Shown here: in pieces, positions 1-12,235 of the stretch
Layout of the letters: each line of letters opens with the position of its first letter
Numbering within the stretch: the stretch's first letter is position 1
Source: a bacterium
Lineage (GTDB): Bacteria; CG03
NCBI GenBank assembly: GCA_043825615.1
Contig: JBDRRS010000003.1
Location: 125,379 to 189,378 of the forward strand
Reading direction: 5' to 3'
DNA length: 64,000 bases
Position numbers and translations under genes: made by a program
The notes under the pieces: model-generated
What the model saw: only the letters and a program-made list of their open reading frames with translations
What the model was told of the DNA's origin: nothing
Databases searched by the model: none

Positions 1-71
1 TAGATTCTAATTGGTTTTTTTGGCTTTTTATTGTAGGCGCTGCATTAGGGGGTTTTGGTGTACATTTCGCC

Positions 72-254
72 TTGGATTATTTTCAATTTAATAATTTACC
101 AAAATGGATAAAATTTACATTAATTATTCTTACGGGTATATTTTCTGGCTATCTCTTGGCAAAGATTAGGAATATTATCCAGTTAATTTTGCTTTATGTA
201 CTAATAGTTGGGGGTTTATTTTTGATAGGTTACTTTTTATGGTCAATACTTTAG
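72..254 (+). CDS. hypothetical small membrane protein (60 aa)
   Basis: ORF in track; hydrophobic, two predicted TM segments; AT-rich; followed within 12 nt by hairpin element copy A. Confidence 0.3.
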   Translation: MDYFQFNNLPKWIKFTLIILTGIFSGYLLAKIRNIIQLILLYVLIVGGLFLIGYFLWSIL

Positions 255-265
255 CTAAAAGAACA

Positions 266-323
266 GGGACGGTTCTGATACTTTTTAGTATGGAAATAAA
301 AACCAGAACCGTCTCGGTTTTTT
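266..323 (+). repeat. intergenic hairpin element copy A (terminator-like: 10-bp stem GACGGTTCTG/CAGAACCGTC, conserved loop, U-tract)
   Basis: Perfect 10-bp inverted repeat read directly; loop GATACTTTTTAG...GAAA..AAAACC shared with copies D, E, G; followed by TCGGTTTTTT. Confidence 0.6.
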
Positions 324-354
324 GAAAAGGTTATTTTAAATAGGAGGATAAATT

Positions 355-1134
355 ATGATTGTTCCTTTAAAAGATTTTGGCAAGTCAGTAAAAGAGCTAT
401 CACGAAATCCGCTTGGTATTATAGCGCTATTTATTGTGCTAGTTTATGGTTTTACATGCTTGCTATTTGGATTTTCAGCTAAATCTTTGACACCGAGCGA
501 AAGAGTTCCGCTTATATGGTTTACTACTCTTTTTCCTTGTTTAGTATTAGTTGTATTCTTTAGGTTAGTTACTAGACATAATCGGAAATTGTATGCTCCA
601 AAAGATTTTCGCGATGATGAATCATTCTTTGGAGCTATAAGAAAAAATCAAACGAATCCATCGGAAGCAAAGGAAAGTGATGCTGATATAAAGGATTTGA
701 TGGAATACGGCGAGGGCTTTCAAATAATCAAAAAACTGGAAGAAAAAATAAAAGAAGATTTACGAGTAAGAAAAGTTAGCAATTCTGATAAAAAGGCCGA
801 AGTTTTGATTCATCAGTTGGCGGCAGCGCAAGTATTAACTTGGTTTGAAAAAACATATTATATGCTGTTTGGCAGTCAAATTGCTTTATTAAAATCACTT
901 AATGAAACTCCTTCAGGACTTACAAAACACTTTATCTCTTATAGATTTTTTGAGACAGTTAGAAATCAATACCCAAAAGCATTTTTATCTTGGAGTGTAG
1001 ATAATTATTTAAATTTTCTTATAACGTCCAACTTGATTTTACCAGAAAATGATAAATTGGTTATAACTGTAGTGGGTAGAGAATTCCTAACATGGCTAAC
1101 AAAATCGGGATATTCTGAATTTAAAGAGTATTAA
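355..1134 (+). CDS. hypothetical membrane protein (N-terminal TM helices, C-terminal soluble domain)
   Basis: 259-aa ORF with RBS-like AGGAGG 8 nt upstream; hydrophobic stretches at residues ~20-70; no recognisable catalytic motif. Confidence 0.5.
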   Translation: MIVPLKDFGKSVKELSRNPLGIIALFIVLVYGFTCLLFGFSAKSLTPSERVPLIWFTTLFPCLVLVVFFRLVTRHNRKLYAPKDFRDDESFFGAIRKNQTNPSEAKESDADIKDLMEYGEGFQIIKKLEEKIKEDLRVRKVSNSDKKAEVLIHQLAAAQVLTWFEKTYYMLFGSQIALLKSLNETPSGLTKHFISYRFFETVRNQYPKAFLSWSVDNYLNFLITSNLILPENDKLVITVVGREFLTWLTKSGYSEFKEY

Positions 1135-1185
1135 TCCTAATAGCAATGAGAAAAAGGAAAAAAAAGGTAACGTCTTTGATATTGA

Positions 1186-1228
1186 GAGGGCGAAAATGAA
1201 GATGGAAACCAGAACCGCCCTGGATTTT
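1186..1228 (+). repeat. intergenic hairpin element copy B (GAGGGCG...CGCCCTGGATTTT)
   Basis: Stem GGGCG/CGCCC flanking loop containing GAAAACCAGAACC shared with copies A and C. Confidence 0.45.
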
Positions 1229-1312
1229 AGAAGCCTATCCAAGTGACTGATTTAGGATGTTACGTGATTAAAGAATTAATCTAATATCAAAATAGGGGGT
1301 AAGGTCATAAGA

Positions 1313-1915
1313 ATGCCAAAGAAATTAAGAGGTTATAAAATTTATATTGCACCGCAGATTTCAGGATATTTAGATACTAATGGACAACCTGTAGTATATG
1401 ATGAAAAAACAAAAAAGAGTCTTGACCCTAATAATATTAATGATAAAATTACAATTTATGAGAGACAAGTAAAAGAATGGTTTCTCAACAGGGCATCGAG
1501 ATTACTGAGTGGTAAGAAAAATGGATTTATAATTCTAATGTTGTCAATTTCTTATATTGAAGGTGTTGAGCGATATAGACAAGGGAATAATAGTAGAAAT
1601 AGTAGTACAAACTATTTTAAAACAGGGCTTCAAAGAATATTTGCGGCACTGCATGTAAGCAATCATGACTTAAATGATTTTTATAGCCAAGTAAGATGTG
1701 GATTATTTCATGTGGGGATGACACGAAAGCAAGTAATCATTAGTCAACTTTACCCTCATCCGATAGATTTTTCAGAATCAAACACTATAAAAATTAATCC
1801 AAAAAAATTTCTAAGGGATATAAAGCTAGATTTTAATAGGTATTTAAAAGAACTAAGAGACCCAACCAAGATTGACCTAAGAAATAACTTCGACAGTATG
1901 TATAGGAATATGTAA
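1313..1915 (+). CDS. hypothetical protein (200 aa)
   Basis: ORF in track, AT-rich island, co-directional with neighbours; no motif recognised. Confidence 0.5.
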   Translation: MPKKLRGYKIYIAPQISGYLDTNGQPVVYDEKTKKSLDPNNINDKITIYERQVKEWFLNRASRLLSGKKNGFIILMLSISYIEGVERYRQGNNSRNSSTNYFKTGLQRIFAALHVSNHDLNDFYSQVRCGLFHVGMTRKQVIISQLYPHPIDFSESNTIKINPKKFLRDIKLDFNRYLKELRDPTKIDLRNNFDSMYRNM

Positions 1916-2005
1916 GAAAATAGAAAAAAAGTTATAGCGTTAGAAATTTAATCCCCAAGAAGAAAAGTAAAAGAAAATGGTGAAGAAAGAGAAGGCGTAG
2001 AAGAA

Positions 2006-2028
2006 GATGAAAACCAGAACCATCCCGG
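2006..2028 (+). repeat. intergenic hairpin element partial copy C (GATGAAAACCAGAACCATCCCGG)
   Basis: 3' half of the element only; its GAACCATCCC is the exact complement of copy D 5' arm GGGATGGTTC. Confidence 0.4.
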
Positions 2029-2042
2029 ATAGAGATATATAG

Positions 2043-2678
2043 ATGAAAGAATATAAAACAATAAAAGATTGTGCAGTTGATATTATCTGTGAAAAAGGTG
2101 ATAAATTAAGCAATAAACAGATAGCTGAACAGGTACGGGATATTATGAAGTCAAATACTACTTGGAAATCTATTGCCTGGTATAAAAATAAAATAAACAG
2201 AGGGATTATAAAAGTTGACAGGCAGCAATATAAATGGATTAGAAAAGGAAAAGTGGTACTAAGAGAAATTACAGTTGAGAATTTAGATGAAATAAATTAT
2301 GAGAATGAAGCAGAAAGAATTGTAGCTGAATATGAGAAGAAACGAACCGGCAAATATCCAAAGAGTTTCAAAAAGGGACCGAATAGCCCCGGATATGATT
2401 TAGAGAGCACAGACCGACATATAGAGGTAAAGGGCAAAAAAAACAAAGGCACAAGATGGTTGCCCCTAACAGCCAATGAAACAGAGAAACTAATCAAAGA
2501 TCCAAAATACTGGTTGTATTTAGTGGAAGGGGATATAGAAAAAAAGCCGGACAATGTTGATATATATGCGATTTCAAAAAATGATTTACTAAGTATGACA
2601 CAACTTAAAATACATGCAAGATTAACGCAATTATCAAATAAAGAAAAGAGGAAGAATTGGAAGGTCAGGAAAGTGTGA
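2043..2678 (+). CDS. DUF3883-like (restriction-endonuclease-fold) domain protein with N-terminal helical/HTH-like region
   Basis: C-terminal segment GYDLESTDRHIEVKGKKNKGTRWLPLTANETEKLIKDPKYWLYLVEG resembles the DUF3883 signature as recalled (GYDi...IEVK...lT.nE...YwLY.V); sits directly upstream of Type III mod. Confidence 0.5.
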   Translation: MKEYKTIKDCAVDIICEKGDKLSNKQIAEQVRDIMKSNTTWKSIAWYKNKINRGIIKVDRQQYKWIRKGKVVLREITVENLDEINYENEAERIVAEYEKKRTGKYPKSFKKGPNSPGYDLESTDRHIEVKGKKNKGTRWLPLTANETEKLIKDPKYWLYLVEGDIEKKPDNVDIYAISKNDLLSMTQLKIHARLTQLSNKEKRKNWKVRKV

Positions 2679-2753
2679 GAGGAATTTGTTCTGAAACTGA
2701 ATTTCTTTGAGAGTTTAAAATTTGGTAGAATAGTGAAATGAGGAATTATTTAT

Positions 2754-4751
2754 ATGAAAAACATTTTTAAAAACAAATTGTATGCATTACTTAAAAAAGA
2801 CGTTCGCCTTTGGGACAAAGAAAAGAAAGAACTCAATGAAACTCTTCTGAAAGACTTGATTGATAAGCTAGACGAAAAACTGCTCGGATTGCTGCTCGAC
2901 GACAAAGAAGCAAAAGAAAAGTTTTTTATCAAAGTTAAAGACGTTTTTGTATTAAAGCAAAATGAGTTAAAATTTTTTATTGATGAAAACAAGCTTGATA
3001 ACTCCTATACACAATATCAAAACAAAATAGGATTGCGTGTCGGGAATAAACTTTTAAGCGAACGAGATGAAGTAGTTTTGGATTGGCCTTTCAAGGATTG
3101 TGTGCTTGAAGGCGGGATGACTAAAGAAGACCAAAAAAGAAATGAGATATTTTTTAATGTAGTGTTAGCAAAAGATGAAATTGACCGGTTGGAAGATCCG
3201 AAGGCATTGGTTAATTGGAAAAGATACACTGCTAATGGTGCGGAAAAGGTAAAAGAACTTGAAAGAGATAAAGACGGCACAATCCGGGAAAATTTAATTA
3301 TCAAAGGTAACAATTTGCTTGCTTTACATAGTCTTAAAGAGCAATTTGCCGGAATGGTGAAATTGATTTACATTGATCCGCCTTACAATAGAGACGCTGA
3401 CACTTTTTATAATGATAACTTTAAGCATTCAACATGGTTAACTTTCATGAAAAACAGACTGGAAGTTGCAAAAGATTTATTAAGAGATGATGGAGTGATT
3501 TTTGTGCAGTGTGATGATAATGAACAAGCATATTTGAAAGTTTTGATGGATAAAATTTTTGGAAAGGATTTGTTGCTTTCAATTCATCATATACAAGTTA
3601 GATATGGAAGTAAATCTTTAAATGAAAGAAAAGATTTTCAAGAATTATTAGAATACGTATTAATATACAAAAATAAAAATATTAATATTAATTTCAACAA
3701 ACCAACGCAAAAGTATCCATTAAATAAATTTAATTTAAAAATACAGCATTCAGATAAACCTTCAAAACAAGTTATTGAAAATGGAAGGAAAGTAGATATT
3801 TGGGATTCTGATAATTTTACTATTAAAGAACAGAAAACTGGAGGTATTGATTTTTTTAAAGAGACTTGGATTTCAGGTAGTATATTATCAGGTACTGGTC
3901 ACGGGAAAATGTATATAAAGATTATAGATAAAAGAAGAAGAGAAGATGGAAATGGATGTTTATATAGGATACATGGGATAGGTGAAGATGGACTGGGTTA
4001 TAGATATTATACTAACCCTCAAAATTCTGGTGCAGAAAGAGGAAAAATGTATACGAAAGTACCATTAAAGATTCTTGAACAAGTGAAAAAAGGGACTGCA
4101 AAAAAAGAAAGTCCAATAATTAATTATTATGATTTTAGTCCAGATATTGGGAATATTAGTCATGAAGGAGGTTTTTCTTTTAATTCAGGGAAAAAACCAA
4201 TTAAGATGTTGAAACAATTTATTAATTATTTTAAGGAAAAAAATTGTTTAGTTCTTGATTTTTTTGCTGGATCTGCTTCAACCGCTCACGCAGTTTTACA
4301 ACTTAACAAAGAAGATGGTGGAAACAGAAAATTTCTTTTAGTTGAACAAATGGATTATATAAACACCATTACTTGTCCCAGAGTGCAAAAAATAATAGAA
4401 AAAGAAAATATCGATGATTCTTTCATTTATCTCGAACTTGCTAAATGGAACGAAGAGGCAAAAGAAAAAATATTGAAAGCGAAAAGTTTGAGCGTCTTGG
4501 AAAAACTTTTTGACGAACTTTATGAGCGATATTTCCTTAACTACAATGTAAAAACAAAAGAGTTCAAAGAAAAAACGATTAAGGAAGAAGAATTTAAAAA
4601 GCTTGGTATAGCCAAACAGAAAAAACTTTTTGTTGAAATGTTGGATATGAACCAGATGTATGTGAATTTTAGCGAAAGAGCGGATAAGAAATACAATCTC
4701 TCAAAAGAAGACATTGCATTGAGTGAAGAATTTTATAAATCTAAAAAGTAA
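2754..4751 (+). CDS. mod: Type III restriction-modification system methyltransferase (Mod), N6-adenine beta-class
   Basis: Motif IV LIYIDPPYN (DPPY) at residue ~207 precedes motif I DFFAGSAST (FxGxG-like) at ~503, the beta-class order typical of Type III Mod; stop overlaps start region of res. Confidence 0.85.
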   Translation: MKNIFKNKLYALLKKDVRLWDKEKKELNETLLKDLIDKLDEKLLGLLLDDKEAKEKFFIKVKDVFVLKQNELKFFIDENKLDNSYTQYQNKIGLRVGNKLLSERDEVVLDWPFKDCVLEGGMTKEDQKRNEIFFNVVLAKDEIDRLEDPKALVNWKRYTANGAEKVKELERDKDGTIRENLIIKGNNLLALHSLKEQFAGMVKLIYIDPPYNRDADTFYNDNFKHSTWLTFMKNRLEVAKDLLRDDGVIFVQCDDNEQAYLKVLMDKIFGKDLLLSIHHIQVRYGSKSLNERKDFQELLEYVLIYKNKNININFNKPTQKYPLNKFNLKIQHSDKPSKQVIENGRKVDIWDSDNFTIKEQKTGGIDFFKETWISGSILSGTGHGKMYIKIIDKRRREDGNGCLYRIHGIGEDGLGYRYYTNPQNSGAERGKMYTKVPLKILEQVKKGTAKKESPIINYYDFSPDIGNISHEGGFSFNSGKKPIKMLKQFINYFKEKNCLVLDFFAGSASTAHAVLQLNKEDGGNRKFLLVEQMDYINTITCPRVQKIIEKENIDDSFIYLELAKWNEEAKEKILKAKSLSVLEKLFDELYERYFLNYNVKTKEFKEKTIKEEEFKKLGIAKQKKLFVEMLDMNQMYVNFSERADKKYNLSKEDIALSEEFYKSKK

Positions 4752-4753
4752 AT

Positions 4754-7528
4754 ATGGACGAGCAAAATCTTCAACAACTTGTTGAATCAGAAATAGGCCG
4801 CAAAACCATTTCTAAGATAGAAATACCGGAGTTTATATCCAGTAATTTAAAGCATGATTTTTGGTATTGGCAAAAAGAAGCTTTGCAGTATTTTGTTGCC
4901 TTTGATGCTCTGGAATATGAATATGAAAAGCCGCTAAACGAGCCAACGCATTTGATGTTTAATATGGCCACTGGTACCGGCAAAACTCTGCTTATGGCCG
5001 CTTTAATTATATATTACTACAAAAAAGGCTATAGATATTTCATTTTCTTTGTTAATCAAAACAATATCGTTGATAAAACTGAAAATAATTTTATCAATAA
5101 AAATCATACCAAGTATCTTTTTCACCAAAATATAGTTATTGACGATAAAACTATCAATATCCGTAAAGTAGAAACTTTTGACAATGCTAATGATATTCAA
5201 ATCAAGTTCACATCTATTCACAAGCTTCACAATGTTGTTTATTTGGCAAAAGAAAATGCGGTCACGCTGGAAGATTTACAAAAAAGAGATTTAGTAATGA
5301 TTGGCGATGAAGCTCATCACTTCAATGCTTCAACTATGAGAAATGGACAAACGGAAATGGATTTGCCAACCGAGCTAAAAGGAAATGCCAGCGAAAAAGA
5401 TGTTGAGAAAAGTTGGGAAAATACAGTGTTGAATAAAATTTTAAGAAAAGGCAAAAATAAACAAGATGTTGAAAATAGAAATGTTTTATTGGAATTTACT
5501 GCAACGATACCGAGAAATGCGGATGTTATAGAAAAATATCGCACTAAGACCATTTATAAATTTGAACTTGTAGATTTTTTAAACGCGGGATATACCAAAG
5601 AAATAAATCTCGTTTCTACTTCGCTCAAAAAGAAAGAAAAAATTTTACTTGCTTTGCTTTTTAACTGGTATAGGCATCAAATTGCTCTTAAAAATAATAT
5701 TGCCAATTTTAAGCCTGTTATTCTTTTTAGAAGTAAGTTTATTAAAGAATCAAAGAAAGATTATGAAGAATTTTTGTCGGTTGTTGATAATTTAAAACCT
5801 GCCGATTTTTATTTTTTAAAAAATATTGAAAATTCCATAAAACAAGAGCAATCCAGTGCGTTCAAGGTATATGAACAAGGCAAAAGTCGAGTGCGACAAA
5901 TGCTCCAATTTATCAAGTATAAAAAAATCAACAGTCGAGAAATTGTGAACTATATCAAAGACGAATTTACCGAAAGAAACTGTATTATAACTAACTCGAA
6001 AGACAACAAGGCAACTACTAAAGAGAAAACAACAGAATACCAAGAACAATTACTTAATAGTTTGGAGGATAGAAATAATCATATACGGGCTATTTTTACT
6101 GTTAAACGCCTAACGGAAGGGTGGGATGTTTTAAATCTTTTTGATATTGTTCGCCTTTATAACGGTAGGGATGAAGGCTACGAAAAAAGTACTGGGAAAA
6201 GAAAAGCTGGAGAGGCAACCGTTCAGGAAATACAGCTCATCGGGCGAGGTGTACGCTACTTTCCTTTTTTTTACAATGAACACGAGAAAAACAAGAGAAA
6301 ATTTGATAATGAATTAGAAAATCCACTTCGGGTGTTAGAGGAATTTTATTACCACAGCGACGACGATGTCCGCTATCTTGATGAGTTAAAGCGAGAACTT
6401 AAAAATAAAGGATTTATTCAAGATAATCGCGAGATAAAGAAATTTGCTCTGAAAGATGAATTTAAGCAAAACTATTTCTTTAAAGAAATAAAAGTTTGGA
6501 AAAATGAAAGAATAGATAATCCAGAAAAAAGAAAAAGAACTTTGGCGGAATTGGAAAAAGAATTTGTTTTTGAATATGAAACAAAAGAATTTGCATTGAA
6601 AGAACAGCAAATTGTTTTAGATAAAGAAAAAGATGAAATTTTAGCGGAAAGTTTACAAAAATATAAAAAAACTATCAGCGCAAAAGTTTCGGATTTTGAG
6701 AAGCATATTGTTTGGAAAGCAATTAATAAAAAAGCTACAAAGGATTTATCGCTTTTACGTTTTGATAACTTGCAAAAGGAGTTGAATCTAAATAGTGTTG
6801 ATGAAATTTTATCAGATCGTTTTATCGGCAATTTTAGGGTCAATATTATTGTAGCAAAAGAAAAACAGGGGCTTGATGATATAAGCAATGACGAAAAACT
6901 GGAGTTATTTTTAAAGTTTTTTGATGAATTTACAAGAAAACTCAAAGAAATAGCCAATCCGTATAAGGGAACTGAAAAATTTGAGCCATTTTCTTTTGAA
7001 GATTTATTTGGCGAGGAAAAGCCAAAGAGCGTGCTTATTGATCCTGAAAGTAAAAATCTTGAGGCTGAATTATTAAAAAATAGCTGGTATGTTCTAAATG
7101 GATTTAATGGAACAAGCGAAGAAAGAGAATTATTAGAATTTATGAAAAATAAAATCGGAAATCTACAAGAAAAATATAATGAAGTTTATTTACTACGGAA
7201 TGAAGAAGTATATAAAATTTACGATTTCGAACAAGGACGTGGATTTGAGCCGGATTTTTTGCTTTTTCTAAAAGGCAATAAAGGAAATTTATATTATCAA
7301 ATCTTTATTGAGCCAAAAGGAAGCCAATTTAAGGACAAGGATGGTATGTTTAAATATAGCAAAGAAGGCTGGAAAGAAGAATTTTTACAGAAAATTACTG
7401 ATAAATATGGCAATGGTAATTTATTGAAAGCTGAAAGTAAAGAATATAAATTGCTTGGATTGCCTTTATTTAATGAAAGAGAAAAACATACTTTCGAAGA
7501 AACATTCAACGAACAATTGTTTAACTAA
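4754..7528 (+). CDS. res: Type III restriction endonuclease Res subunit (SF2 helicase + PD-ExK nuclease)
   Basis: Walker A MATGTGKT, DEAH box (MIGDEAHHF), 924 aa; C-terminal PD...ExK-like motif (EPDF...QIFIEPKG); immediately downstream of mod. Confidence 0.85.
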   Translation: MDEQNLQQLVESEIGRKTISKIEIPEFISSNLKHDFWYWQKEALQYFVAFDALEYEYEKPLNEPTHLMFNMATGTGKTLLMAALIIYYYKKGYRYFIFFVNQNNIVDKTENNFINKNHTKYLFHQNIVIDDKTINIRKVETFDNANDIQIKFTSIHKLHNVVYLAKENAVTLEDLQKRDLVMIGDEAHHFNASTMRNGQTEMDLPTELKGNASEKDVEKSWENTVLNKILRKGKNKQDVENRNVLLEFTATIPRNADVIEKYRTKTIYKFELVDFLNAGYTKEINLVSTSLKKKEKILLALLFNWYRHQIALKNNIANFKPVILFRSKFIKESKKDYEEFLSVVDNLKPADFYFLKNIENSIKQEQSSAFKVYEQGKSRVRQMLQFIKYKKINSREIVNYIKDEFTERNCIITNSKDNKATTKEKTTEYQEQLLNSLEDRNNHIRAIFTVKRLTEGWDVLNLFDIVRLYNGRDEGYEKSTGKRKAGEATVQEIQLIGRGVRYFPFFYNEHEKNKRKFDNELENPLRVLEEFYYHSDDDVRYLDELKRELKNKGFIQDNREIKKFALKDEFKQNYFFKEIKVWKNERIDNPEKRKRTLAELEKEFVFEYETKEFALKEQQIVLDKEKDEILAESLQKYKKTISAKVSDFEKHIVWKAINKKATKDLSLLRFDNLQKELNLNSVDEILSDRFIGNFRVNIIVAKEKQGLDDISNDEKLELFLKFFDEFTRKLKEIANPYKGTEKFEPFSFEDLFGEEKPKSVLIDPESKNLEAELLKNSWYVLNGFNGTSEERELLEFMKNKIGNLQEKYNEVYLLRNEEVYKIYDFEQGRGFEPDFLLFLKGNKGNLYYQIFIEPKGSQFKDKDGMFKYSKEGWKEEFLQKITDKYGNGNLLKAESKEYKLLGLPLFNEREKHTFEETFNEQLFN

Positions 7529-7541
7529 AATGGAAAAGTAT

Positions 7542-7599
7542 GGGGATGGTTCTGATACTTTTTAGGATGGGAATGAAAACCGGAAGCGTCCCGGATTTT
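7542..7599 (+). repeat. intergenic hairpin element copy D
   Basis: GGGGATGGTTCTGATACTTTTTAGGATGGGAATGAAAACCGGAAGCGTCCCGGATTTT; outer stem GGGATG/CGTCCC compensates relative to copy A. Confidence 0.55.
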
Positions 7600-7619
7600 A
7601 CAAACAAAAGGAGGTCATT

Positions 7620-7724
7620 ATGAGTGCAAAAAAGAAAGCAAAGAAGAAAGCAAAGAAGAAAGTAGCTAAAAGGAAAGGCACAAAAAAGAGTACAGGTCCT
7701 GGAGGAGGCCGATCTGGTCGATAG
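7620..7724 (+). CDS. lysine-rich micro-ORF (34 aa, MSAKKKAKKKAKKKVAKRKGTKKSTGPGGGRSGR)
   Basis: ATG preceded by AAAGGAGG RBS at -8; not in ORF track (below 60 aa); low-complexity basic peptide. Confidence 0.3.
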   Translation: MSAKKKAKKKAKKKVAKRKGTKKSTGPGGGRSGR

Positions 7725-7743
7725 AGAAGTACTAAATTATAAT

Positions 7744-8196
7744 ATGGGTGGAAGTGGGCAAAATAGATTCAAGAATGCAGAGGAAGCCTTAAAGAAACTC
7801 GGTCAGGATTTTAATGATTGGTGTTCTATTTTAACGACTCACAGTATGCAAGCTGCATATGCAATTATCGCAGCAAACTGGGCCGTGCATGGTAATGCTC
7901 AAAAAATACTCAATAATTGTTGCTCAAAATGGTCACTTGTCGTTGTTTTCCTATTTCTTGGGGTAAACTTGCTCGCAACCAAATGGATGATCCACAAGCA
8001 CTACAAACAATTTCTATATGCAGAGGAGAACTCGGAAAGATGGGAAAAAGAATTCAGAGAAAATAAGGGCAAACGAACTTTCTGGCCGTATACTAAGTGT
8101 ATTGAATATCTTGGTATTGCTCTCCGTTGGCTGAAAGTGGGGGCACCAGTGATAGCTGCTCTGCTATTCATTCTGAGTCTGTTCTTTGGATCGTAA
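7744..8196 (+). CDS. hypothetical membrane protein (150 aa)
   Basis: ORF in track; hydrophobic segments (WSLVVVFLFLGVNLLA, APVIAALLFILSLFF). Confidence 0.45.
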   Translation: MGGSGQNRFKNAEEALKKLGQDFNDWCSILTTHSMQAAYAIIAANWAVHGNAQKILNNCCSKWSLVVVFLFLGVNLLATKWMIHKHYKQFLYAEENSERWEKEFRENKGKRTFWPYTKCIEYLGIALRWLKVGAPVIAALLFILSLFFGS

Positions 8197-8211
8197 TGGT
8201 ACAACGAAGAA

Positions 8212-8275
8212 CGGGAACAGTTTTGATACTTTTTAGGATGAGAATTAAAAGCGGAAGAGCACCTGTGCTCTTTGC
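8212..8275 (+). repeat. intergenic hairpin element copy E (diverged 3' arm GAGCACCTGTGCTC)
   Basis: Shares GTTTTGATACTTTTTAGGATGAGAATTAAAAGCGGAAG with copies A and D. Confidence 0.45.
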
Positions 8276-8554
8276 TTGGAGAGAACGTGAGTAAACAAAA
8301 CCTTAGAAGCTATCCAGTAATAGCGCACGGAGCAGAATATCTTGTAATCGGCTATCTGATGCGTAGGAATATCCTTGCTTACAAGGCATAGCCAGAGAGC
8401 GTTACAAGAATGAAAAGGGGTTTGATATTATCGCAAAGAAATTGGGTATATCTTACCCGGGGATGGAAGATGTCTTACCTGCCTGACGGCAGGCAGGTTG
8501 TAAAGTGCTGTCCCCGCGGATGCTTTGTGTATAATGACGGTAGGAGAAAAAAAT

Positions 8555-8968
8555 ATGAAACCAAACAATTTAAACTCAAGTTTATTTAATTTTGATTATG
8601 TAATCGTAAAAAAACAATGGCTTCGAAATTTTAAGGAAATCATTAAAGATTTAAAAAAGTTAAAAACGAGATCAAAAACTAATATTAAAAAAATAGCAGA
8701 AAAAGATTTAAGAAAAACTATAGAAAATCATATAAAAGATAATGCAGAAGAATTTACTAGAATTATAGAACTCATTGAATTGCAAGTAAGAGTGCTAGTA
8801 AAATTGGAGGAATTTAGTGTTGAAACTCTAAACAAACATCTTTTTTTAACACTTACTCTTTTTAGAATGTTCCATAAGAAAGATATTTCAAAAAGTTTAG
8901 AAAGAAAATTAAGTTGTATTTGTAACCGTCTTAAATGTAGATTTACAAAATTTAAAAAGAAATTCTAA
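8555..8968 (+). CDS. hypothetical protein (start moved to internal Met MKPNNL)
   Basis: ORF 8525-8968 in track; GGAGA RBS-like precedes the ATG at 8555; no motif recognised. Confidence 0.4.
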   Translation: MKPNNLNSSLFNFDYVIVKKQWLRNFKEIIKDLKKLKTRSKTNIKKIAEKDLRKTIENHIKDNAEEFTRIIELIELQVRVLVKLEEFSVETLNKHLFLTLTLFRMFHKKDISKSLERKLSCICNRLKCRFTKFKKKF

Positions 8969-9011
8969 TAAATCTCTCAGCAGACTTTTGAATTAAGATG
9001 AAAAGAGAAAA

Positions 9012-9056
9012 AGGGTACCGGGGCTTTTAAAATGGGAATGGTAACCGGAAGCGGAT
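9012..9056 (+). repeat. intergenic hairpin element copy F (partial)
   Basis: AATGGGAATGGTAACCGGAAGCGG matches the 3' half of copy D. Confidence 0.4.
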
Positions 9057-9138
9057 AATAGAAAAAGTAGGATGTTCCCCTTTCCTCCATAATGTGGAAC
9101 TTTTTTTAAAATAAAATAGATAGAAGGAGAATATTTGT

Positions 9139-10302
9139 ATGGGAGTTTTTAAGTTTAAAACAAATATAGGGATAATGAGTATAGATTATAGACAAACAAA
9201 GAATTTCCCAACGGAAGTTAGAATAGTATCAAAGGATGATTTCGATAGACATATTGAATTTGATTTAGCCACTCACATTAAAATAGAAATCAATCAGTTC
9301 GTAAGTATTCATGATGATGATGGAACTTATTTGATATATGGTGGTTTAAAAATAAGCAAAATAGAACAAAATCTTGAGAGAATCCGATATTATTGTGATT
9401 TAGATAAAATGATATTTGAAAAAAAAGATGTGTTATACAAGGTTGACCATTGGGAAATTGAATTATTTGGAGTTGATTTTTATTCAGAAGAGATCCTGAG
9501 CGGTGAAATGAGATTCCCTTTTTCTCATAAAATTGATAAACCTTTTAGTTTATTTGAAGTCAAACAGCAATCTTGGGAAATACCATATAAAGGATATGAT
9601 TTTTTTGAAAGCCAAGATTTAATATTTGACCTTGTTAGAATACTTTCAATACTCTCCATGAGAGAAGTATGTTTTGGTGACATAAAAGCGTATAATGAAA
9701 ATAATGAATGTATAAAAGCTCAATTAAATAAACCAAAATATATATTTGAACCGAAACTAGATTATAAAATAGGGAATCTAAAGCTAAAAAAATCCTTAAA
9801 TTTTATTTCTGAATTACCTAATCTTAGTTCAAAAAAATATTCTACGCTGGTTTTTTACTATTTAAATGTATTTCATCAAACCTATGCAGAATTTAGTTTA
9901 GCATTTATGTATCAAGTTTTCGAGTGTATATTTAATTCAAAATGGAAACAAGAAAAAGAATTTCTGAAAATTAAAGAGAAGGGGGAGAAAACAAATGAAT
10001 TAAAGAATGAATACATAGAGAAAAAAATAATAGAAGCTTATCGTGTGCTAAACAAAGATGTACAAAATATATTGGATATTACACCGGGGGAATTCTTTAA
10101 ATTGATTAAAAAAATAAGACAGGTATATTTTCATGCAGGGGATTTAAGTAAAGCACTAAATGAAATGAGAAATAAACTACCAGGCGTTAGAAACGAAGAT
10201 AGAAATTATATTATAGCATTAGGGCAAGTAGTATTATCGGTATTATTACTTTCGGCGGTATATGATTATTCTTTAGAGGATATAGAAGTAACAACTAAAT
10301 AA
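9139..10302 (+). CDS. hypothetical protein (387 aa)
   Basis: ORF in track; last gene of AT-rich island; no motif recognised. Confidence 0.5.
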   Translation: MGVFKFKTNIGIMSIDYRQTKNFPTEVRIVSKDDFDRHIEFDLATHIKIEINQFVSIHDDDGTYLIYGGLKISKIEQNLERIRYYCDLDKMIFEKKDVLYKVDHWEIELFGVDFYSEEILSGEMRFPFSHKIDKPFSLFEVKQQSWEIPYKGYDFFESQDLIFDLVRILSILSMREVCFGDIKAYNENNECIKAQLNKPKYIFEPKLDYKIGNLKLKKSLNFISELPNLSSKKYSTLVFYYLNVFHQTYAEFSLAFMYQVFECIFNSKWKQEKEFLKIKEKGEKTNELKNEYIEKKIIEAYRVLNKDVQNILDITPGEFFKLIKKIRQVYFHAGDLSKALNEMRNKLPGVRNEDRNYIIALGQVVLSVLLLSAVYDYSLEDIEVTTK

Positions 10303-10313
10303 AAAGAAAAACG

Positions 10314-10347
10314 AGATTAGTTCTAATACTTTTCTATCTATTGAAAC
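10314..10347 (+). repeat. intergenic hairpin element weak copy H (GTTCTAATACTTTT)
   Basis: Shares GTTCTAATACTTTT with copy G; 12 nt after stop of the 9139-10302 ORF. Confidence 0.3.
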
Positions 10348-10566
10348 CTGCAGAAAGAAATTACATCCTGACAAAACTATCATTCTCGTGGTCTGAAGAA
10401 CTTCGGGTTTTGTAAAGTACGGGATACGGGTAACGGGGGAAGAACAAATCCCCCTCAATCCCCCTTTACTAAAGGGGGAAAGATTGCCACGGGCTTCGCC
10501 CTCGCAATGGCAGGCCAGGGGGAGGAAAGAACTTTGAGTTAAGAAAGCATTTGGTATAATTGCGCT

Positions 10567-11346
10567 ATGATTGGCGCGATAGCGGGTGATATTATCGGTT
10601 CTGTCTTTGAATGGAATAATATTAAGACGACGGAGTTCCCTTTATTTTGTGACGAATCAATGTTTACGGACGATACAGTATTAACCATAGCGGTTGCCGA
10701 TTGTATATTAAACAGTAAAGATTATGCCGGGACTCTTAAATCATGGGGCAGAAAATATCCGGATGCCGGATACGGGGGAAATTTCGGGGCATGGCTGTAT
10801 AATGAGAGAAGCGAACCGTATAACAGTTGGGGGAACGGGTCGGCTATGAGAGTCAGTCCGGTTGGTTTTGCTTTCGGAACCCTTGAGGAAGTATTGGAAG
10901 AAGCAAAGAAAAGCGCTGAAGTAACCCACAACCATCCTGAAGGAATAAAAGGCGCCCAGGCGGCCGCCGGAGCAATATTTTTAGCGAGGCAGGGTAAAAG
11001 TAAAATTGAAATTAAGGAGTATGTGGAAGAGCAATTTGATTATAACCTGAGCAGAACTCTTGATGAAATCAGACCGTCATATTCCTTTGATGTGAGTTGT
11101 CAGGGCTCTGTGCCCGAAGCTATAACCGCATTTTTAGAGTCAAACAGTTTTGAGGATGCAGTTAGAAAAGCGGTTTCAATAGGAGGGGACAGCGATACGA
11201 TTGCCTGTATAGCGGGCGGAATTGCCCAGGCGTTTTATAAGGAAATTCCTGCGGAAATTATATTGAATGTAAAAAAAAGATTGCCGCCGGATATGCTGGG
11301 GGTTGTTGAAGAATGGAGAAAGAGAATAGTAAATGGTAAATGGTGA
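10567..11346 (+). CDS. ADP-ribosylglycohydrolase family protein (DraG/ARH-like)
   Basis: Family-typical N-terminal GAIAGDIIGS and C-terminal GGDSDTIACIAGGIAQA motifs. Confidence 0.8.
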   Translation: MIGAIAGDIIGSVFEWNNIKTTEFPLFCDESMFTDDTVLTIAVADCILNSKDYAGTLKSWGRKYPDAGYGGNFGAWLYNERSEPYNSWGNGSAMRVSPVGFAFGTLEEVLEEAKKSAEVTHNHPEGIKGAQAAAGAIFLARQGKSKIEIKEYVEEQFDYNLSRTLDEIRPSYSFDVSCQGSVPEAITAFLESNSFEDAVRKAVSIGGDSDTIACIAGGIAQAFYKEIPAEIILNVKKRLPPDMLGVVEEWRKRIVNGKW

Positions 11347-11386
11347 TTAGGGAAGAAGGACGAGAGGTATTTAGTATAATTGTGGT

Positions 11387-12235
11387 ATGAGACTTCATAT
11401 CGTCGTATTATTTTCAATTATTGTCTTATCTCTAACAGCGCCGGTCTATGCGGATAATAAAAATGAGATTAATCTTAATTTAGAATGCTCAAGTTATGCG
11501 GGAACGAGCAGAAATATTAATTATTCTTACCGGTCCGGTAAACTTCCATTAAAATACCAGATAGAGAGTTTTACTTTTCCAAATAAAAGGGTAATCAGGA
11601 GTGTTCTTTCGGGAAGAATTTCATTGGATATGAAATACTTCGAACTTGGCTATGGCTATAATTGTGATAAATTCAGTACTGGCCGCAATGGAATATTACG
11701 TATAGGTTCAAAAAATGCATGGGCGCTTGTACTTAAAGGATTCTACAATGTAGAAGAACAGTTTCTGATTGGTGAAAAGAGAAGATACAATACATCAGCT
11801 TACATGGATATGTTGATAGTGTTTGGTAATTTAATATATTTGAACTTTGATTTGAACATGGTGGGGATGCATGTAACTGATGAAGTTATAGATGAAGATG
11901 GAGCATGTAGGGACACTATTAAAGAAGAATCAGATTTTATTTCAGATGCTGAATTTAGTTTAAAAATAAAACTGTTTCCCAGAAGGAAAATATCATATTT
12001 CGTTGGAATAGGTGGGATAAGCAATGAAAATATACATTATGGCGAGAACACTGAAGATTATTGTTTTGTTGGCTATTTTGAGATACTTAATCAGATAAAT
12101 AAGAATATTCATTGGAATATTTCTTTCAAGTGCGGAAATGGTGAAAAGAGTTATCGTACAGGAGAGTTCGAACCCTCGACGAATTCAAGCCAAAAGATGA
12201 TTGGATTGTTTACAAGCGTTTCTTATAAATTGTAA
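11387..12235 (+). CDS. hypothetical secreted protein
   Basis: N-terminal signal peptide-like MRLHIVVLFSIIVLSLTAPVYA; no motif recognised. Confidence 0.45.
   Translation: MRLHIVVLFSIIVLSLTAPVYADNKNEINLNLECSSYAGTSRNINYSYRSGKLPLKYQIESFTFPNKRVIRSVLSGRISLDMKYFELGYGYNCDKFSTGRNGILRIGSKNAWALVLKGFYNVEEQFLIGEKRRYNTSAYMDMLIVFGNLIYLNFDLNMVGMHVTDEVIDEDGACRDTIKEESDFISDAEFSLKIKLFPRRKISYFVGIGGISNENIHYGENTEDYCFVGYFEILNQINKNIHWNISFKCGNGEKSYRTGEFEPSTNSSQKMIGLFTSVSYKL

What the first reader, a model, noticed from the sequence alone, without database searches (positions are those of the whole stretch)
7620..10302. Uncharacterised block downstream of res: lysine-rich micro-ORF, membrane protein and two unknown proteins
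A 34-codon ORF (MSAKKKAKKKAKKKVAKRKGTKKSTGPGGGRSGR) with a strong AAAGGAGG RBS is invisible to the 60-aa ORF track. It sits 20 nt upstream of a 150-aa membrane protein, followed by 138-aa and 387-aa proteins without recognisable motifs. A highly basic peptide paired with a membrane protein could be a toxin/immunity or nucleic-acid-binding pair; the 387-aa protein is the largest unknown in the island.
Basis: partly seen in the sequence, partly recalled or inferred. Interest (0 to 1): 0.6.

Follow-up and report, generated by a model that had tools for sequence, protein, structure and literature searches.

The report
Tagged basic peptide plus membrane partner
The unannotated 34-codon lysine-rich gene is real: with the membrane protein after it, it forms an undescribed two-gene module found in over 50 environmental bacterial loci, where varied DNA-binding proteins share a short Gly-Pro-Gly-Gly-Gly-Arg/His tag, while the two larger "unknown" genes are unrelated orphans.

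Summary
In detail: ORFs, RBS and coordinates are as described, and no library recognises any of the four proteins.

The block is not one system.

(1) The micro-ORF (7620-7724) and the 150-aa protein (7744-8196) form a conserved two-gene module.
- Homologues of the membrane protein occur in about 60 loci (Deltaproteobacteria, Acidobacteriota and Pirellulales MAGs; sediment and soil metagenomes).
- Nearly all are preceded, often with overlapping stop and start codons, by an ORF ending in G-x-G-x-G-R/H. This is true of 39 of 53 loci under a strict rule, against 5 of 8,027 control ORFs.
- The rest of the partner varies: 30-45-aa Lys/Ala peptides, H1-like repeats, HU, SWIB, wHTH and a few acidic proteins.
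- Codon usage and substitution patterns show selection on the protein.
- The membrane protein models confidently as a three-helix bundle with a cytoplasmic stalk.
- Best reading (inferred): the motif docks a nucleic-acid-binding partner onto the membrane protein. The biological role is open. Neighbours are often defence genes, but not always.

(2) The 138-aa and 387-aa ORFs have no homologues anywhere, have a different GC content, and are separated from the module by an island-specific intergenic repeat. Nothing can be inferred about them.

The toxin/immunity reading is unsupported. The nucleic-acid-binding reading is partly supported.

The parts
7534..7604 (+). Copy of the island-specific ~70-nt intergenic repeat, between res and the micro-ORF. 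It holds a short GC hairpin (CCGGAAGCGTCCCGG) followed by a T run.
   Evidence: Repeat family D1/D2. The core motif is confined to the island. A terminator-like hairpin is called at 7580-7594. It is not attC-like.
7607..7614 (+). Shine-Dalgarno sequence AAAGGAGG of the micro-ORF, 5 nt before the ATG.
   Evidence: Read directly from the sequence.
7620..7724 (+). Micro-ORF: a 34-aa polybasic protein (16 K/R, no D/E). It is the 'tagged partner' of the module and is unannotated in the public record.
   Evidence: Equivalent ORFs lie upstream of homologous membrane genes in about 50 loci. Substitutions show a third-position excess.
7695..7712 (+). Codons for the conserved motif G26-P-G-G-G-R31 (GGT CCT GGA GGA GGC CGA), followed by S-G-R-stop.
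   Evidence: Motif table and codon table. 39 of 53 loci pass the strict rule against 5 of 8,027 controls.
7744..8196 (+). 150-aa inner-membrane protein and founder of an unmodelled family. It is a three-helix antiparallel bundle, half in the membrane and half a cytoplasmic stalk. Invariant residues are W26, A40, A43-A44-N45-W46, S64, W100 and W114-P115.
   Evidence: 33 homologues. Alignments. AF2 pLDDT 87.2. No Pfam, PDB, PADLOC or PHROG match.
8205..8275 (+). Second copy of the intergenic repeat, closing the module on its 3' side. It ends in its own hairpin, AGAGCAC..GTGCTCT.
8287..8480 (+). Probable gene remnant. A 34-codon ORF (VSKQNLRSYPVIAHGAEYLVIGYLMRRNILAYKA*) continues in another frame (..NEKGFDIIAKKLGISYPGMEDVLPA*).
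   Evidence: Three-frame translations. No Pfam hit. The reading as a remnant is an inference.
8456..8519 (+). GC-rich hairpin (-36.6 kcal/mol, z = -4.4) just upstream of the 138-aa ORF. Its outer stem resembles the repeat's GGGGATGG...GTCCCCG ends.
8552..8968 (+). 138-aa ORFan (alternative starts at 8534 and 8525). It is Lys-rich, 22% GC, and has an AGGAG RBS. Its coding status is plausible but only marginally above chance.
   Evidence: It matches only itself among 5.8 billion proteins. No family hits. Shuffle test and GC.
9025..9053 (+). Partial copy of the intergenic repeat, upstream of the 387-aa ORF.
   Evidence: Family D2.
9139..10302 (+). 387-aa ORFan, 27% GC. The low-confidence AF2 model suggests a beta-rich N-terminal half and a helical C-terminal half with an R-x4-H string (RQVYFH, nt 10117-10134).
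   Evidence: Only a 99%-identical copy was found by the k-mer search and by full phmmer against 1.84 billion representatives. No PDB or Pfam hit. AF2 pLDDT 34.6. Motif position.

Best explanation
The interval holds three independent units, not one system.

Unit 1 (7607-8196) is a self-contained, probably translationally coupled two-gene module. It encodes a 34-aa polybasic protein carrying the motif G-P-G-G-G-R near its C-terminus, and a 150-aa three-helix inner-membrane protein with a cytoplasmic helical stalk.

Shown:
- The pair recurs in more than 50 loci from several phyla.
- The upstream partner always keeps a G-x-G-x-G-R/H motif.
- The rest of the partner is swapped among Lys/Ala peptides, H1-like repeats, HU, SWIB, wHTH/HTH proteins and a few acidic proteins.
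- The motif is selected at the protein level.
- Its last residue (R or H) tracks the clade of the membrane protein.

Inferred:
- The motif is a short docking tag that binds the cytoplasmic, aromatic-rich stalk of the membrane protein.
- A non-specific nucleic-acid-binding protein is therefore held at the inner face of the membrane.
- The window's peptide is the minimal version: polylysine DNA/RNA binder plus tag.
- What this achieves (tethering or intercepting DNA at the membrane, or controlling the membrane protein) is not resolved. The frequent restriction-modification, TIR, PLD-nuclease and ABC-3C neighbours hint at a role in handling foreign DNA.

Units 2 and 3 (8552-8968 and 9139-10302) are lineage-restricted ORFans of different base composition. 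They lie in their own repeat-bounded slots, and no function can be assigned to them.
For: Family and loci:
- Membrane-protein family: 33 homologues. 5 GTDB genomes and 54 metagenome loci.

The upstream partner:
- A tagged upstream ORF is present in almost every locus with usable upstream DNA.
- Under the strict rule, 39 of 53 loci pass against 5 of 8,027 other ORF segments. Two of those five are second tagged partners in tandem modules.
- Partner domains: HU 3.5e-29 and 5.6e-25, SWIB 2.9e-28, TrmB/MarR wHTH 2.6e-7, HC2-like weak. HU is also seen by precomputed Pfam in L067.

Protein-level selection on the motif:
- Arg uses AGA, AGG, CGA, CGG, CGT and CGC. Pro uses all four codons. Gly uses all four codons. 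The frame is always Gly-Gly.
- Pairwise comparisons show a third-position excess and synonymous changes about equal to non-synonymous ones.
- The motif is kept when it is 31+ nt from the downstream start (the window), when it is duplicated (L002, L050), and when it is N-terminal (L066).

Coupling and co-evolution:
- The stop and start codons are 0-7 nt apart or overlap in many loci.
- R-tag and H-tag partners go with two membrane-protein clades, 26 and 13 sequences.

Structure:
- The AF2 model has pLDDT 87 and helices 12-49, 59-107 and 118-147.
- The positive-inside rule puts the N-terminus and the 85-131 loop in the cytoplasm. The invariant residues W26, W100 and W114-P115 fall in that cytoplasmic part.

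Independence from the neighbouring genes:
- ORFan status.
- GC is 41-42% for the module against 22-27% for the ORFans.
- Repeats flank the module. A different repeat flanks the homologous module in L068.
Against: - No physical interaction has been shown or modelled.
- In many loci the Gly codons (GGAGG) also lie where the downstream gene's Shine-Dalgarno sequence or GTG start should be, so part of the conservation may be at the nucleotide level.
- The R/H split coincides with phylogeny, so it is not independent evidence of co-evolution.
- Some partners are acidic or may carry a signal peptide (L008, L036, L046). DNA binding is therefore not universal.
- The most conserved stretch of the membrane protein, AIIAANW, is inside the membrane. 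This suggests it does more than anchor.
- Three loci lack an obvious partner: L019, L055 and L062.
- The window's peptide has not been shown to be translated or to bind nucleic acid.
Confidence: 0.45

Rival explanations
1. Defence or abortive-infection effector pair. The membrane protein is a pore-forming or membrane-disrupting effector. The DNA-binding partner is its sensor or inhibitor: bound through the tag, it releases or activates the effector when foreign DNA titrates it. This keeps the tag-docking idea but gives the module a toxin/antitoxin-like logic.
For: - Neighbours in several loci are defence genes: type III RM and a NOV_C nuclease here, type II RM in L069, two TIR proteins in L067, a PLDc_2 nuclease in L070 and L072, and ABC-3C CTD9/MC5 plus DUF4145 in L068.
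- The distribution is patchy and rare, only 5 of 185,579 GTDB species by pattern scan.
- Tandem duplicated modules exist.
- Conserved polar residues lie in the membrane helices: N45 and S64 invariant, N58 87%, N75 nearly invariant among the 32 closer homologues.
Against: - No match to any PADLOC, PHROG or Pfam toxin, holin or effector model.
- The module also sits among housekeeping genes: aro genes and rnpA-yidC-jag in L063, and efp-secA in L066.
- It is absent from phage, plasmid and IMG/VR collections.
- There are no toxicity data.
Confidence: 0.25
2. The Gly-rich tail is only a by-product of the translation-initiation region of the membrane gene (GGAGG Shine-Dalgarno sequence, GTG starts) overlapping whatever gene lies upstream. 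On this view the upstream ORFs are unrelated neighbours and the window's micro-ORF need not be functional.
For: - In many loci the membrane gene starts 0-7 nt after the partner's stop or inside its last codons.
- GGA GGN codons then sit 7-14 nt upstream of the start, and in H-type loci in-frame GTG codons fall inside GGT GGT GGA.
Against: - The G-run is always read in the Gly-Gly frame.
- A Pro codon that is not part of any SD is conserved with all four synonymous codons.
- The final Arg switches between the AGR and CGN codon families.
- The motif persists 31+ nt from the start in the window, 60-70 nt away in L026 and L034, and about 130 nt upstream near the N-terminus in L066.
- The upstream genes are far from random: nearly all are polybasic or known DNA-binding domains.
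- The control frequency is 5 of 8,027.
Confidence: 0.08
3. The micro-ORF is a regulatory leader or arrest peptide. Its translation (polylysine plus a Gly/Pro-rich end) stalls ribosomes and so controls expression of the membrane gene. It has no function as a free protein.
For: - The ORF is short, has a strong RBS, lies close to a downstream gene with a weak RBS, and has a conserved C-terminal end.
- Polylysine and Pro/Gly-rich ends are known to slow ribosomes (general knowledge, not tested here).
Against: - At the same position other loci have full-length HU, SWIB and wHTH proteins of 90-180 aa or more carrying the same tag.
- The motif can be followed by up to about 10 residues, or by a 40-residue tail in L066.
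- Its last residue differs between the clades of the membrane protein.
Confidence: 0.05
4. All four ORFs (micro-ORF, membrane protein, 138-aa, 387-aa) form one operon-encoded system attached to the type III restriction-modification genes.
For: All lie on the same strand in one low-GC island immediately after res.
Against: - The module recurs in about 60 loci, never with relatives of the other two genes, which have no relatives at all.
- GC differs by 15-20 points.
- Repeat copies with terminator-like hairpins, a gene remnant and a strong hairpin lie between the units.
Confidence: 0.03

Closest known systems
Membrane-anchored nucleoid-associated proteins: M. tuberculosis Rv3852 (a NAP with a C-terminal transmembrane helix; PMC8233713) and bacterial HU-CCDC81 proteins fused to a TM segment, proposed to tether the nucleoid to the envelope (Burroughs et al. 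2017, PMC5499826)
   Same: A non-specific DNA-binding moiety (Lys/Ala-rich or HU) is coupled to a membrane anchor. The expected outcome is DNA held at the inner membrane.
   Different: - Those are single polypeptides with a fused TM helix. Here the binder and the anchor are separate genes, joined (by inference) through a 6-residue motif.
- The anchor is a conserved 3-helix protein with invariant intramembrane residues.
- There is no sequence similarity.
HU-HIG clade of Bacteroidetes: HU with a glycine-rich C-terminal tail (Pfam PF18291; PMC5499826)
   Same: HU domains carry a short conserved Gly-rich C-terminal extension, which the authors proposed mediates binding to a partner and placed in a conflict context.
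   Different: - HU-HIG genes are reported to lack conserved operon partners. Here the partner is a dedicated membrane protein.
- The HU partners here score as classical PF00216 and only weakly as HU-HIG (1.6e-5, below cut-off).
- The tag is shared with non-HU proteins.
Histone H1-like proteins of bacteria (chlamydial Hc1/Hc2, Pfam HC2)
   Same: Lys/Ala-rich low-complexity DNA-condensing sequences. One long partner (L004) gives a weak HC2 match.
   Different: - The window's peptide is 34 aa and gives no HC2 hit.
- Hc proteins have no GPGGG-R/H motif or membrane partner (own knowledge).
Short C-terminal docking peptides with a neighbouring receptor gene, for example encapsulin cargo-loading peptides or the FtsZ C-terminal peptide bound by FtsA/ZipA (own knowledge)
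   Same: Genetic and architectural logic: variable 'cargo' proteins share a short, Gly-containing terminal peptide that is recognised by one partner.
   Different: - The receptor here is a 150-aa membrane protein, not a capsid-like shell or a divisome protein.
- The motif sequence is different.
- The analogy is of principle only and is untested.
Integron gene cassettes / attC arrays
   Same: One-directional array of small, mostly unknown genes, each separated by a repeated element. The module is bounded by such repeats here and, with a different repeat, in L068.
   Different: - The repeats conserve sequence rather than a hairpin.
- They lack RYYYAAC/GTTRRRY ends, and most copies do not fold better than shuffles.
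- No integrase is seen in the available DNA.

Membership tests
Known anti-phage defence systems (PADLOC-DB v2) | HMM match of the component proteins | tested here: not met
   The micro-ORF, 150-aa and 387-aa proteins have 0 families. The 138-aa protein has only noise (Cas8a 0.0022, BrxB 0.034). mod and res match type III RM strongly.
Integron gene cassette | attC site: an imperfect hairpin with R''/L''-L'/R' boxes and a GTTRRRY core at the 3' end of each cassette | tested here: not met
   Only 1 of 7 window copies and 0 of 4 L068 copies fold clearly better than shuffles as bottom-strand DNA. No GTTRRRY is conserved.
Integron gene cassette | Integron integrase (intI) and attI next to the array | not testable with these tools
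   The island starts about 490 nt left of the window. Only 622 nt more could be fetched (L001). The minus-strand ORF there is not integrase-like.
HU/IHF (PF00216) or other folded nucleoid-associated protein, for the window's micro-ORF | Match to the domain model | tested here: not met
   The 34-aa peptide has no Pfam hit. HU, SWIB and wHTH are found only in positional equivalents in other loci.
Histone H1-like HC2 (PF07382) | Lys/Ala/Pro-rich repeats matching the model above its cut-off | tested here: not met
   The window peptide has no hit. The best partner (L004) scores 19.5 bits against a cut-off of 40. The resemblance is compositional.
Holin / phage lysis cassette | Small membrane protein matching a phage family and next to an endolysin | tested here: not met
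   No PHROG hit. No BFVD fold match. No tblastn hit in phages or IMG/VR. No lysin gene is adjacent.
Leaderless bacteriocin plus immunity protein | Amphipathic or hydrophobic cationic peptide, with an immunity membrane protein and usually a transporter | tested here: not met
   The peptide is K/A/G-rich with almost no hydrophobic residues. Equivalents are cytoplasmic DNA-binding domains. No transporter is conserved nearby.
HEPN nuclease domain, for the 387-aa protein | All-alpha domain with an R-x4-6-H motif, and a match to a HEPN family model | tested here: inconclusive
   RQVYFH at residues 327-332 lies in a helical region predicted with low confidence. No Pfam hit appears even at E <= 10, and no homologues exist to build a profile. 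The string could be chance.
Proposed new family: GPGGG-R/H-tagged partner plus 3-helix membrane protein | (a) homologue of the 150-aa protein with the A-[IV]-I-A-A-N-W and W-P-[YF] signatures; (b) an immediately upstream, same-strand ORF carrying G-x-G-x-G-R/H near its end | tested here: met
   The window has both: AIIAANW at residues 41-47 and WPY at 114-116, and the micro-ORF motif at residues 26-31. The pattern recurs in the loci.

The most novel reading that the evidence does not exclude
The GPGGG-R/H motif and the three-helix membrane protein form a previously unrecognised tag-receptor system. It posts interchangeable DNA-binding proteins (HU, SWIB, HTH, polylysine peptides) at the inner membrane as a first-line guard against incoming DNA. 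Either it coats or traps injected phage or plasmid DNA at the point of entry, or it triggers the membrane protein as an abortive-infection effector. This would be a new class of defence module that cooperates with neighbouring restriction systems.
Probability: 0.2. Interest if true: 0.85.

Novelty: new variant of a known kind. Interest (0 to 1): 0.6.

Why it matters
- Standard gene callers and the public annotation miss the 34-codon gene, yet it proves to be the signature component of a conserved module.
- The module shows that very different DNA-binding proteins can share one six-residue tag and one dedicated membrane partner.
- If the tag docks on the membrane protein, this is a modular, two-gene way for bacteria to hold nucleic-acid-binding proteins at the membrane. 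That bears on nucleoid-membrane contacts and possibly on interception of foreign DNA.
- It gives a simple search rule (the motif plus the AIIAANW/WP[YF] protein) for finding more hidden small genes.
- It also corrects the picture of the island. The large '387-aa unknown' is an uninformative orphan, not the centre of a system.

Tried and rejected
- 387-aa protein, homology: a k-mer search of 5.8 billion proteins and full phmmer against 1.84 billion representatives found only a 99% copy and one weak 3.7e-5 hit with no informative domains. The PDB sequence search was empty.
- 387-aa protein, structure: single-sequence AF2 was unusable, pLDDT 34.6. No fold search was therefore attempted.
- 138-aa protein: it matches only itself.
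- HEPN idea: R-x4-H strings occur in the 387-aa and 200-aa proteins, but no HMM supports them and the two proteins are not significantly similar.
- Integron/attC hypothesis for the intergenic repeats: rejected on folding and core-site criteria. One suggestive R''/R' complement in L068 (GTTCGGT/ACCGAAC) was not repeated in the other copies.
- Rfam found nothing in 1-12000.
- Mobile-element carriage: no relatives in IMG/VR, INPHARED phages or PLSDB plasmids. The repeat core is absent from IMG/VR and from all fetched loci except the window's own copy, L003.
- Rosetta-stone fusions of partner and membrane protein: the long N-termini of P0009 and P0031 are alternative-frame readings of the Lys-rich partner, not fusions.
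- A conserved third gene: none. Downstream neighbours differ in every locus.
- Residue-level co-variation between tag type and membrane protein: it cannot be separated from the R/H clade split.


Full report
**Setting**

The first ~10.4 kb of the window is a low-GC island: 31% GC against 44.5% for the rest. All its genes are on the + strand. In order they are:
- a 259-aa TM/wHTH-like protein,
- a 200-aa unknown,
- a 211-aa NOV_C-domain protein,
- a type III restriction-modification pair: mod 2754-4751 and res 4754-7528,
- the flagged block.

The source is an NCBI "MAG: bacterium" contig of 252 kb with locus tags ABIJ15_00740 to 00750.

**Observation check**

- The 34-codon ORF is 7620-7724 and reads MSAKKKAKKKAKKKVAKRKGTKKSTGPGGGRSGR.
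- AAAGGAGG lies 5 nt upstream of its ATG.
- The 150-aa ORF starts 19 nt after its stop.
- ORFs of 138 aa (8552-8968) and 387 aa (9139-10302) follow.
- No Pfam, NCBIfam, PADLOC or PHROG model reaches significance for any of the four.
- The micro-ORF is missing from the public annotation and from a 15-billion-protein collection.

**The two large unknowns are orphans**

- The 387-aa protein has only a 99%-identical copy on a 1.3-kb contig among 5.8 billion clustered proteins.
- The same holds for an exhaustive phmmer search of 1.84 billion representatives. The single extra hit, at 3.7e-5, has no informative domain.
- It has no PDB relative, and its single-sequence AF2 model is unusable at pLDDT 34.6.
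- The 138-aa protein matches only itself.
- The 387-codon ORF is far longer than any stop-free run in shuffles. The 138-codon one is only marginally longer.
- An R-x4-H string (RQVYFH) in the helical C-terminal part of the 387-aa protein is reminiscent of HEPN nucleases. Nothing supports it statistically, so it remains a lead.

**The micro-ORF and the membrane protein are a conserved pair**

- The 150-aa protein has 33 homologues at 38-71% identity, all 145-184 aa and all unnamed.
- Pattern-plus-tblastn scans found it in 5 GTDB genomes: two Deltaproteobacteria MAGs, a Pirellulales, a Thermoanaerobaculia and a Terriglobia. They also found it on 54 metagenome contigs.
- In the first locus inspected (L002, 67% identity), the gene is preceded by MAKKKKAAKKKAKRAKRKKKGGPGGGRRSKGIGGGR*.
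- Systematic translation of the upstream DNA of all loci shows the same arrangement almost everywhere. The upstream ORF ends in GPGGGR, GGGGGR, GGGPGR, GPGPGR, GPGPGH, GAGGGH or GGGGGH, sometimes followed by up to ~10 mostly basic residues.
- I applied a strict rule: G-x-G-x-G-[RH], at most 4 further residues, then stop, ending within -60 to +200 nt of the membrane gene. 39 of 53 distinct loci with at least 120 nt of upstream DNA qualify.
- The control is 5 of 8,027 other stop-to-stop segments of 25 aa or more in the same DNA. Two of those five are second tagged partners in tandem modules (L036, L061).
- Only L019, L055 and L062 show no partner at all.

**What varies and what does not**

The part of the partner outside the motif is interchangeable.
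- 30-45-aa Lys/Ala peptides like the window's.
- Long H1/HC2-like repeats (L004, L047, L052).
- Coiled-coil plus Lys-rich proteins (L010, L028, L030).
- Bona fide HU: L045 at 3.5e-29, L059 at 5.6e-25, and L067 by precomputed Pfam.
- SWIB: L044 at 2.9e-28.
- A TrmB/MarR-type winged helix: L006/L035 at 2.6e-7.
- An XRE-like HTH, judged by eye (L061).
- In Terriglobia, acidic Pro-rich proteins.

Most partners are therefore nucleic-acid-binding. The invariant feature is the motif.

**Protein-level or nucleotide-level conservation?**

There is a serious alternative. In many loci the membrane gene starts 0-7 nt after the partner's stop or overlaps it. The GGA GGN codons then sit where its Shine-Dalgarno sequence should be, and in H-type loci GTG starts fall inside GGT GGT GGA. 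Several observations argue for selection on the peptide all the same.
- The G-run is always in the Gly-Gly frame.
- The Pro codon, which is irrelevant to an SD, is kept with all four synonymous codons.
- The final Arg switches between the AGR and CGN families.
- Gly uses all four codons: GGA 59, GGT 54, GGC 37, GGG 27.
- The motif survives at 31 nt (the window) and at 60-70 nt (L026, L034) from the start. In L066 it survives near the N-terminus, ahead of a 40-residue Lys tail.
- It can be duplicated, as in L002 and L050.
- Pairwise codon comparisons show a third-position excess, for example 3/8/17 and 2/4/10 differences at codon positions 1/2/3. Synonymous changes are about as frequent as non-synonymous ones.

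The ORF is conserved as coding. Dual use of the Gly codons as an SD in some loci is likely, and it fits translational coupling.

**The membrane protein**

- With the 32-sequence alignment, AF2 gives a confident model: pLDDT 87.2 and pTM 0.74. It has three long antiparallel helices at 12-49, 59-107 and 118-147.
- Hydrophobicity and the positive-inside rule place residues ~36-56, 64-84 and 130-150 in the membrane. The N-terminal helix and the 85-131 loop (11 K/R) are cytoplasmic, forming a ~35-Å three-helix stalk.
- Residues invariant or nearly invariant across 46 distinct sequences are W26, L30 and S34; A40, I42, A43, A44, N45 and W46; S64; W100; W114, P115 and T117; and P135.
- They cluster in two places: an aromatic group in the cytoplasmic part, and the AIIAANW stretch inside the membrane.
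- Fold searches returned only generic helical bundles. Profile searches against PDB and Pfam found nothing.
- The family splits into two clades that match the last residue of the tag: 26 sequences with R and 13 with H. This fits co-evolution but is confounded with phylogeny.

**Context and mobility**

The module's neighbours are:
- a type II RM system in L069,
- two TIR proteins in L067,
- a PLD-family nuclease in L070 and L072,
- ABC-3C conflict-system domains and DUF4145 in L068,
- type III RM here,
- aromatic-amino-acid genes and rnpA-yidC-jag in L063,
- efp-secA in L066,
- unremarkable genes in L006 and L007.

No third gene is conserved. The family is absent from IMG/VR, phage and plasmid collections. 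In the window the module has 41-42% GC, against 22-27% for the two ORFans and 30-31% for mod/res.

The module is bracketed by two copies of a ~70-nt repeat. That repeat also sits in every other intergenic gap of the island, at 257, 1184, 1989, 7534, 8205 and 9025, with one more copy just left of the window. In L068 the homologous module is bracketed in the same way by an unrelated ~88-nt repeat.

I tested whether these repeats are integron attC sites, and they are not. Sequence is conserved rather than structure, most copies fold no better than shuffles, and there is no GTTRRRY core. The conserved core holds a short GC hairpin followed by T's. They may be terminators, but their origin is unexplained.

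**Mechanism**

Shown:
- a two-gene unit;
- tight or overlapping gene junctions;
- a protein-level conserved six-residue motif shared by otherwise unrelated, mostly DNA-binding partners;
- a confidently modelled membrane protein with a cytoplasmic stalk.

Inferred:
- The motif is a docking tag for the stalk. Aromatic-rich surfaces commonly bind Gly/Pro-rich peptides (general knowledge).
- The module therefore holds a non-specific nucleic-acid binder at the inner membrane. The window's peptide is the minimal form.
- I put this at about 0.45.

A variant in which the membrane protein is an effector controlled by the partner, with defence or abortive-infection logic, gets about 0.25. It is favoured by the defence neighbours and the conserved intramembrane polar residues. 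It is disfavoured by the housekeeping contexts and the lack of any toxin-like match. The SD by-product, leader-peptide and single four-gene-operon readings are each unlikely.

**Comparison with known systems**

- The closest concepts are membrane-anchored nucleoid proteins: Rv3852, and TM-fused HU-CCDC81 (PMC8233713, PMC5499826).
- Also close are the Gly-rich-tailed HU-HIG proteins, for which a partner was postulated but no operon partner found (PMC5499826).
- This module differs in three ways. It is split into two genes. One tag is shared across HU, SWIB, HTH and minimal peptides. The partner is a dedicated conserved 3-helix membrane protein.
- It is not a member of any modelled family.
- A full-text search for the motif string and for related concepts found no description.

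**Verdict**

It is wrong in treating the block as a unit, and the toxin/immunity idea is unsupported.
- The interesting object is the 577-bp module at 7620-8196, not the 387-aa protein.
- Interest is 0.6: a new, testable tag-plus-receptor gene pair of unknown role. It is held down by the absence of any functional data and by the uninformative ORFans.

Noticed in passing
window 257-327, 1184-1225, 1989-2030, 7534-7604, 8205-8275, 9025-9053; L001 470-500: A ~70-nt repeat (core TTTTAGGATGRGAATGAAAACCRGAASCGTCCCGGAT) occupies nearly every intergenic gap of the low-GC island and occurs nowhere else in the window. Its core forms a short GC hairpin plus a T run. It is not attC-like. Its origin and role (terminator, regulator site, assembly scar) are unexplained.
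   Followed up: partly
L068 5778-5865, 6503-6590, 8948-9035, 10016-10070, 10527-10581, 11223-11310: In an unrelated contig, the homologous micro-ORF/membrane-gene module sits in a one-directional array of small genes. It is bracketed by a different, array-specific ~88-nt repeat, the same architecture as in the window. The array includes ABC-3C CTD9/MC5 and DUF4145 genes.
   Followed up: partly
L001 104-148 (about window -518 to -474) and window 10399-10455: The whole ~10.9-kb low-GC island is bracketed by an imperfect inverted repeat (AGGGGGATTTKTTCT ... CTTTAMARAACCCGAARTT). Two colinear BLAST segments give E 0.005 and 0.25. These could be terminal inverted repeats, or the two arms of a host hairpin split by the insertion. 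No transposase or integrase is visible.
   Followed up: partly
window 8287-8480: A frameshifted remnant of a gene (VSKQNLRSYPVIAHGAEYLVIGYLMRRNILAYKA* then ..NEKGFDIIAKKLGISYPGMEDVLPA*) occupies its own repeat-bounded slot. From memory it resembles the N-terminus of small PD-(D/E)XK-type nucleases, but it has no Pfam hit.
   Followed up: partly
window 8456-8519: A very stable GC-rich hairpin (-36.6 kcal/mol, z = -4.4) lies in otherwise AT-rich DNA, immediately upstream of the 138-aa ORF.
   Followed up: no
L036 670-1568; L061 1355-1995: Tandem modules. L036 has an acidic tagged partner, the membrane gene, then a second 35-aa Lys-rich partner ending GPGGGH at the contig end. L061 has a Lys-rich partner, a truncated membrane gene, then an XRE-like HTH protein ending GNGKGGGRFR.
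   Followed up: partly
window 1694-1711 and 10117-10134: Both the 200-aa island protein (RCGLFH) and the 387-aa ORFan (RQVYFH) carry an R-x4-H string in predicted helical regions. This is the HEPN nuclease signature, but it has no statistical support.
   Followed up: partly
window 10549-10569 and 11369-11389 (also 2720-2741): A repeated TTTGGTATAATTG-N4-ATG element places an extended -10 box (TGGTATAAT) 6 nt before the start codons of the ADP-ribosylglycohydrolase gene (10567) and the next gene (11387). There is no room for a Shine-Dalgarno sequence, which suggests leaderless mRNAs.
   Followed up: no
window 355-1134: The 259-aa island protein (two N-terminal TM helices and a weak C-terminal winged-helix hit) matches phage family phrog_26238 (E 8.6e-9). 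It is the only phage-related signal in the island.
   Followed up: no
L063-L065 6900-7486: In a Deltaproteobacteria MAG (RBG_16_44_11) and two near-identical contigs, the module lies next to Sir2, histone-deacetylase-family, NUDIX and TANGO2 genes, within 2-5 kb of jag-yidC-rnpA-rpmH or trmE. This is an origin-proximal, chromatin-flavoured neighbourhood rather than a defence island.
   Followed up: no
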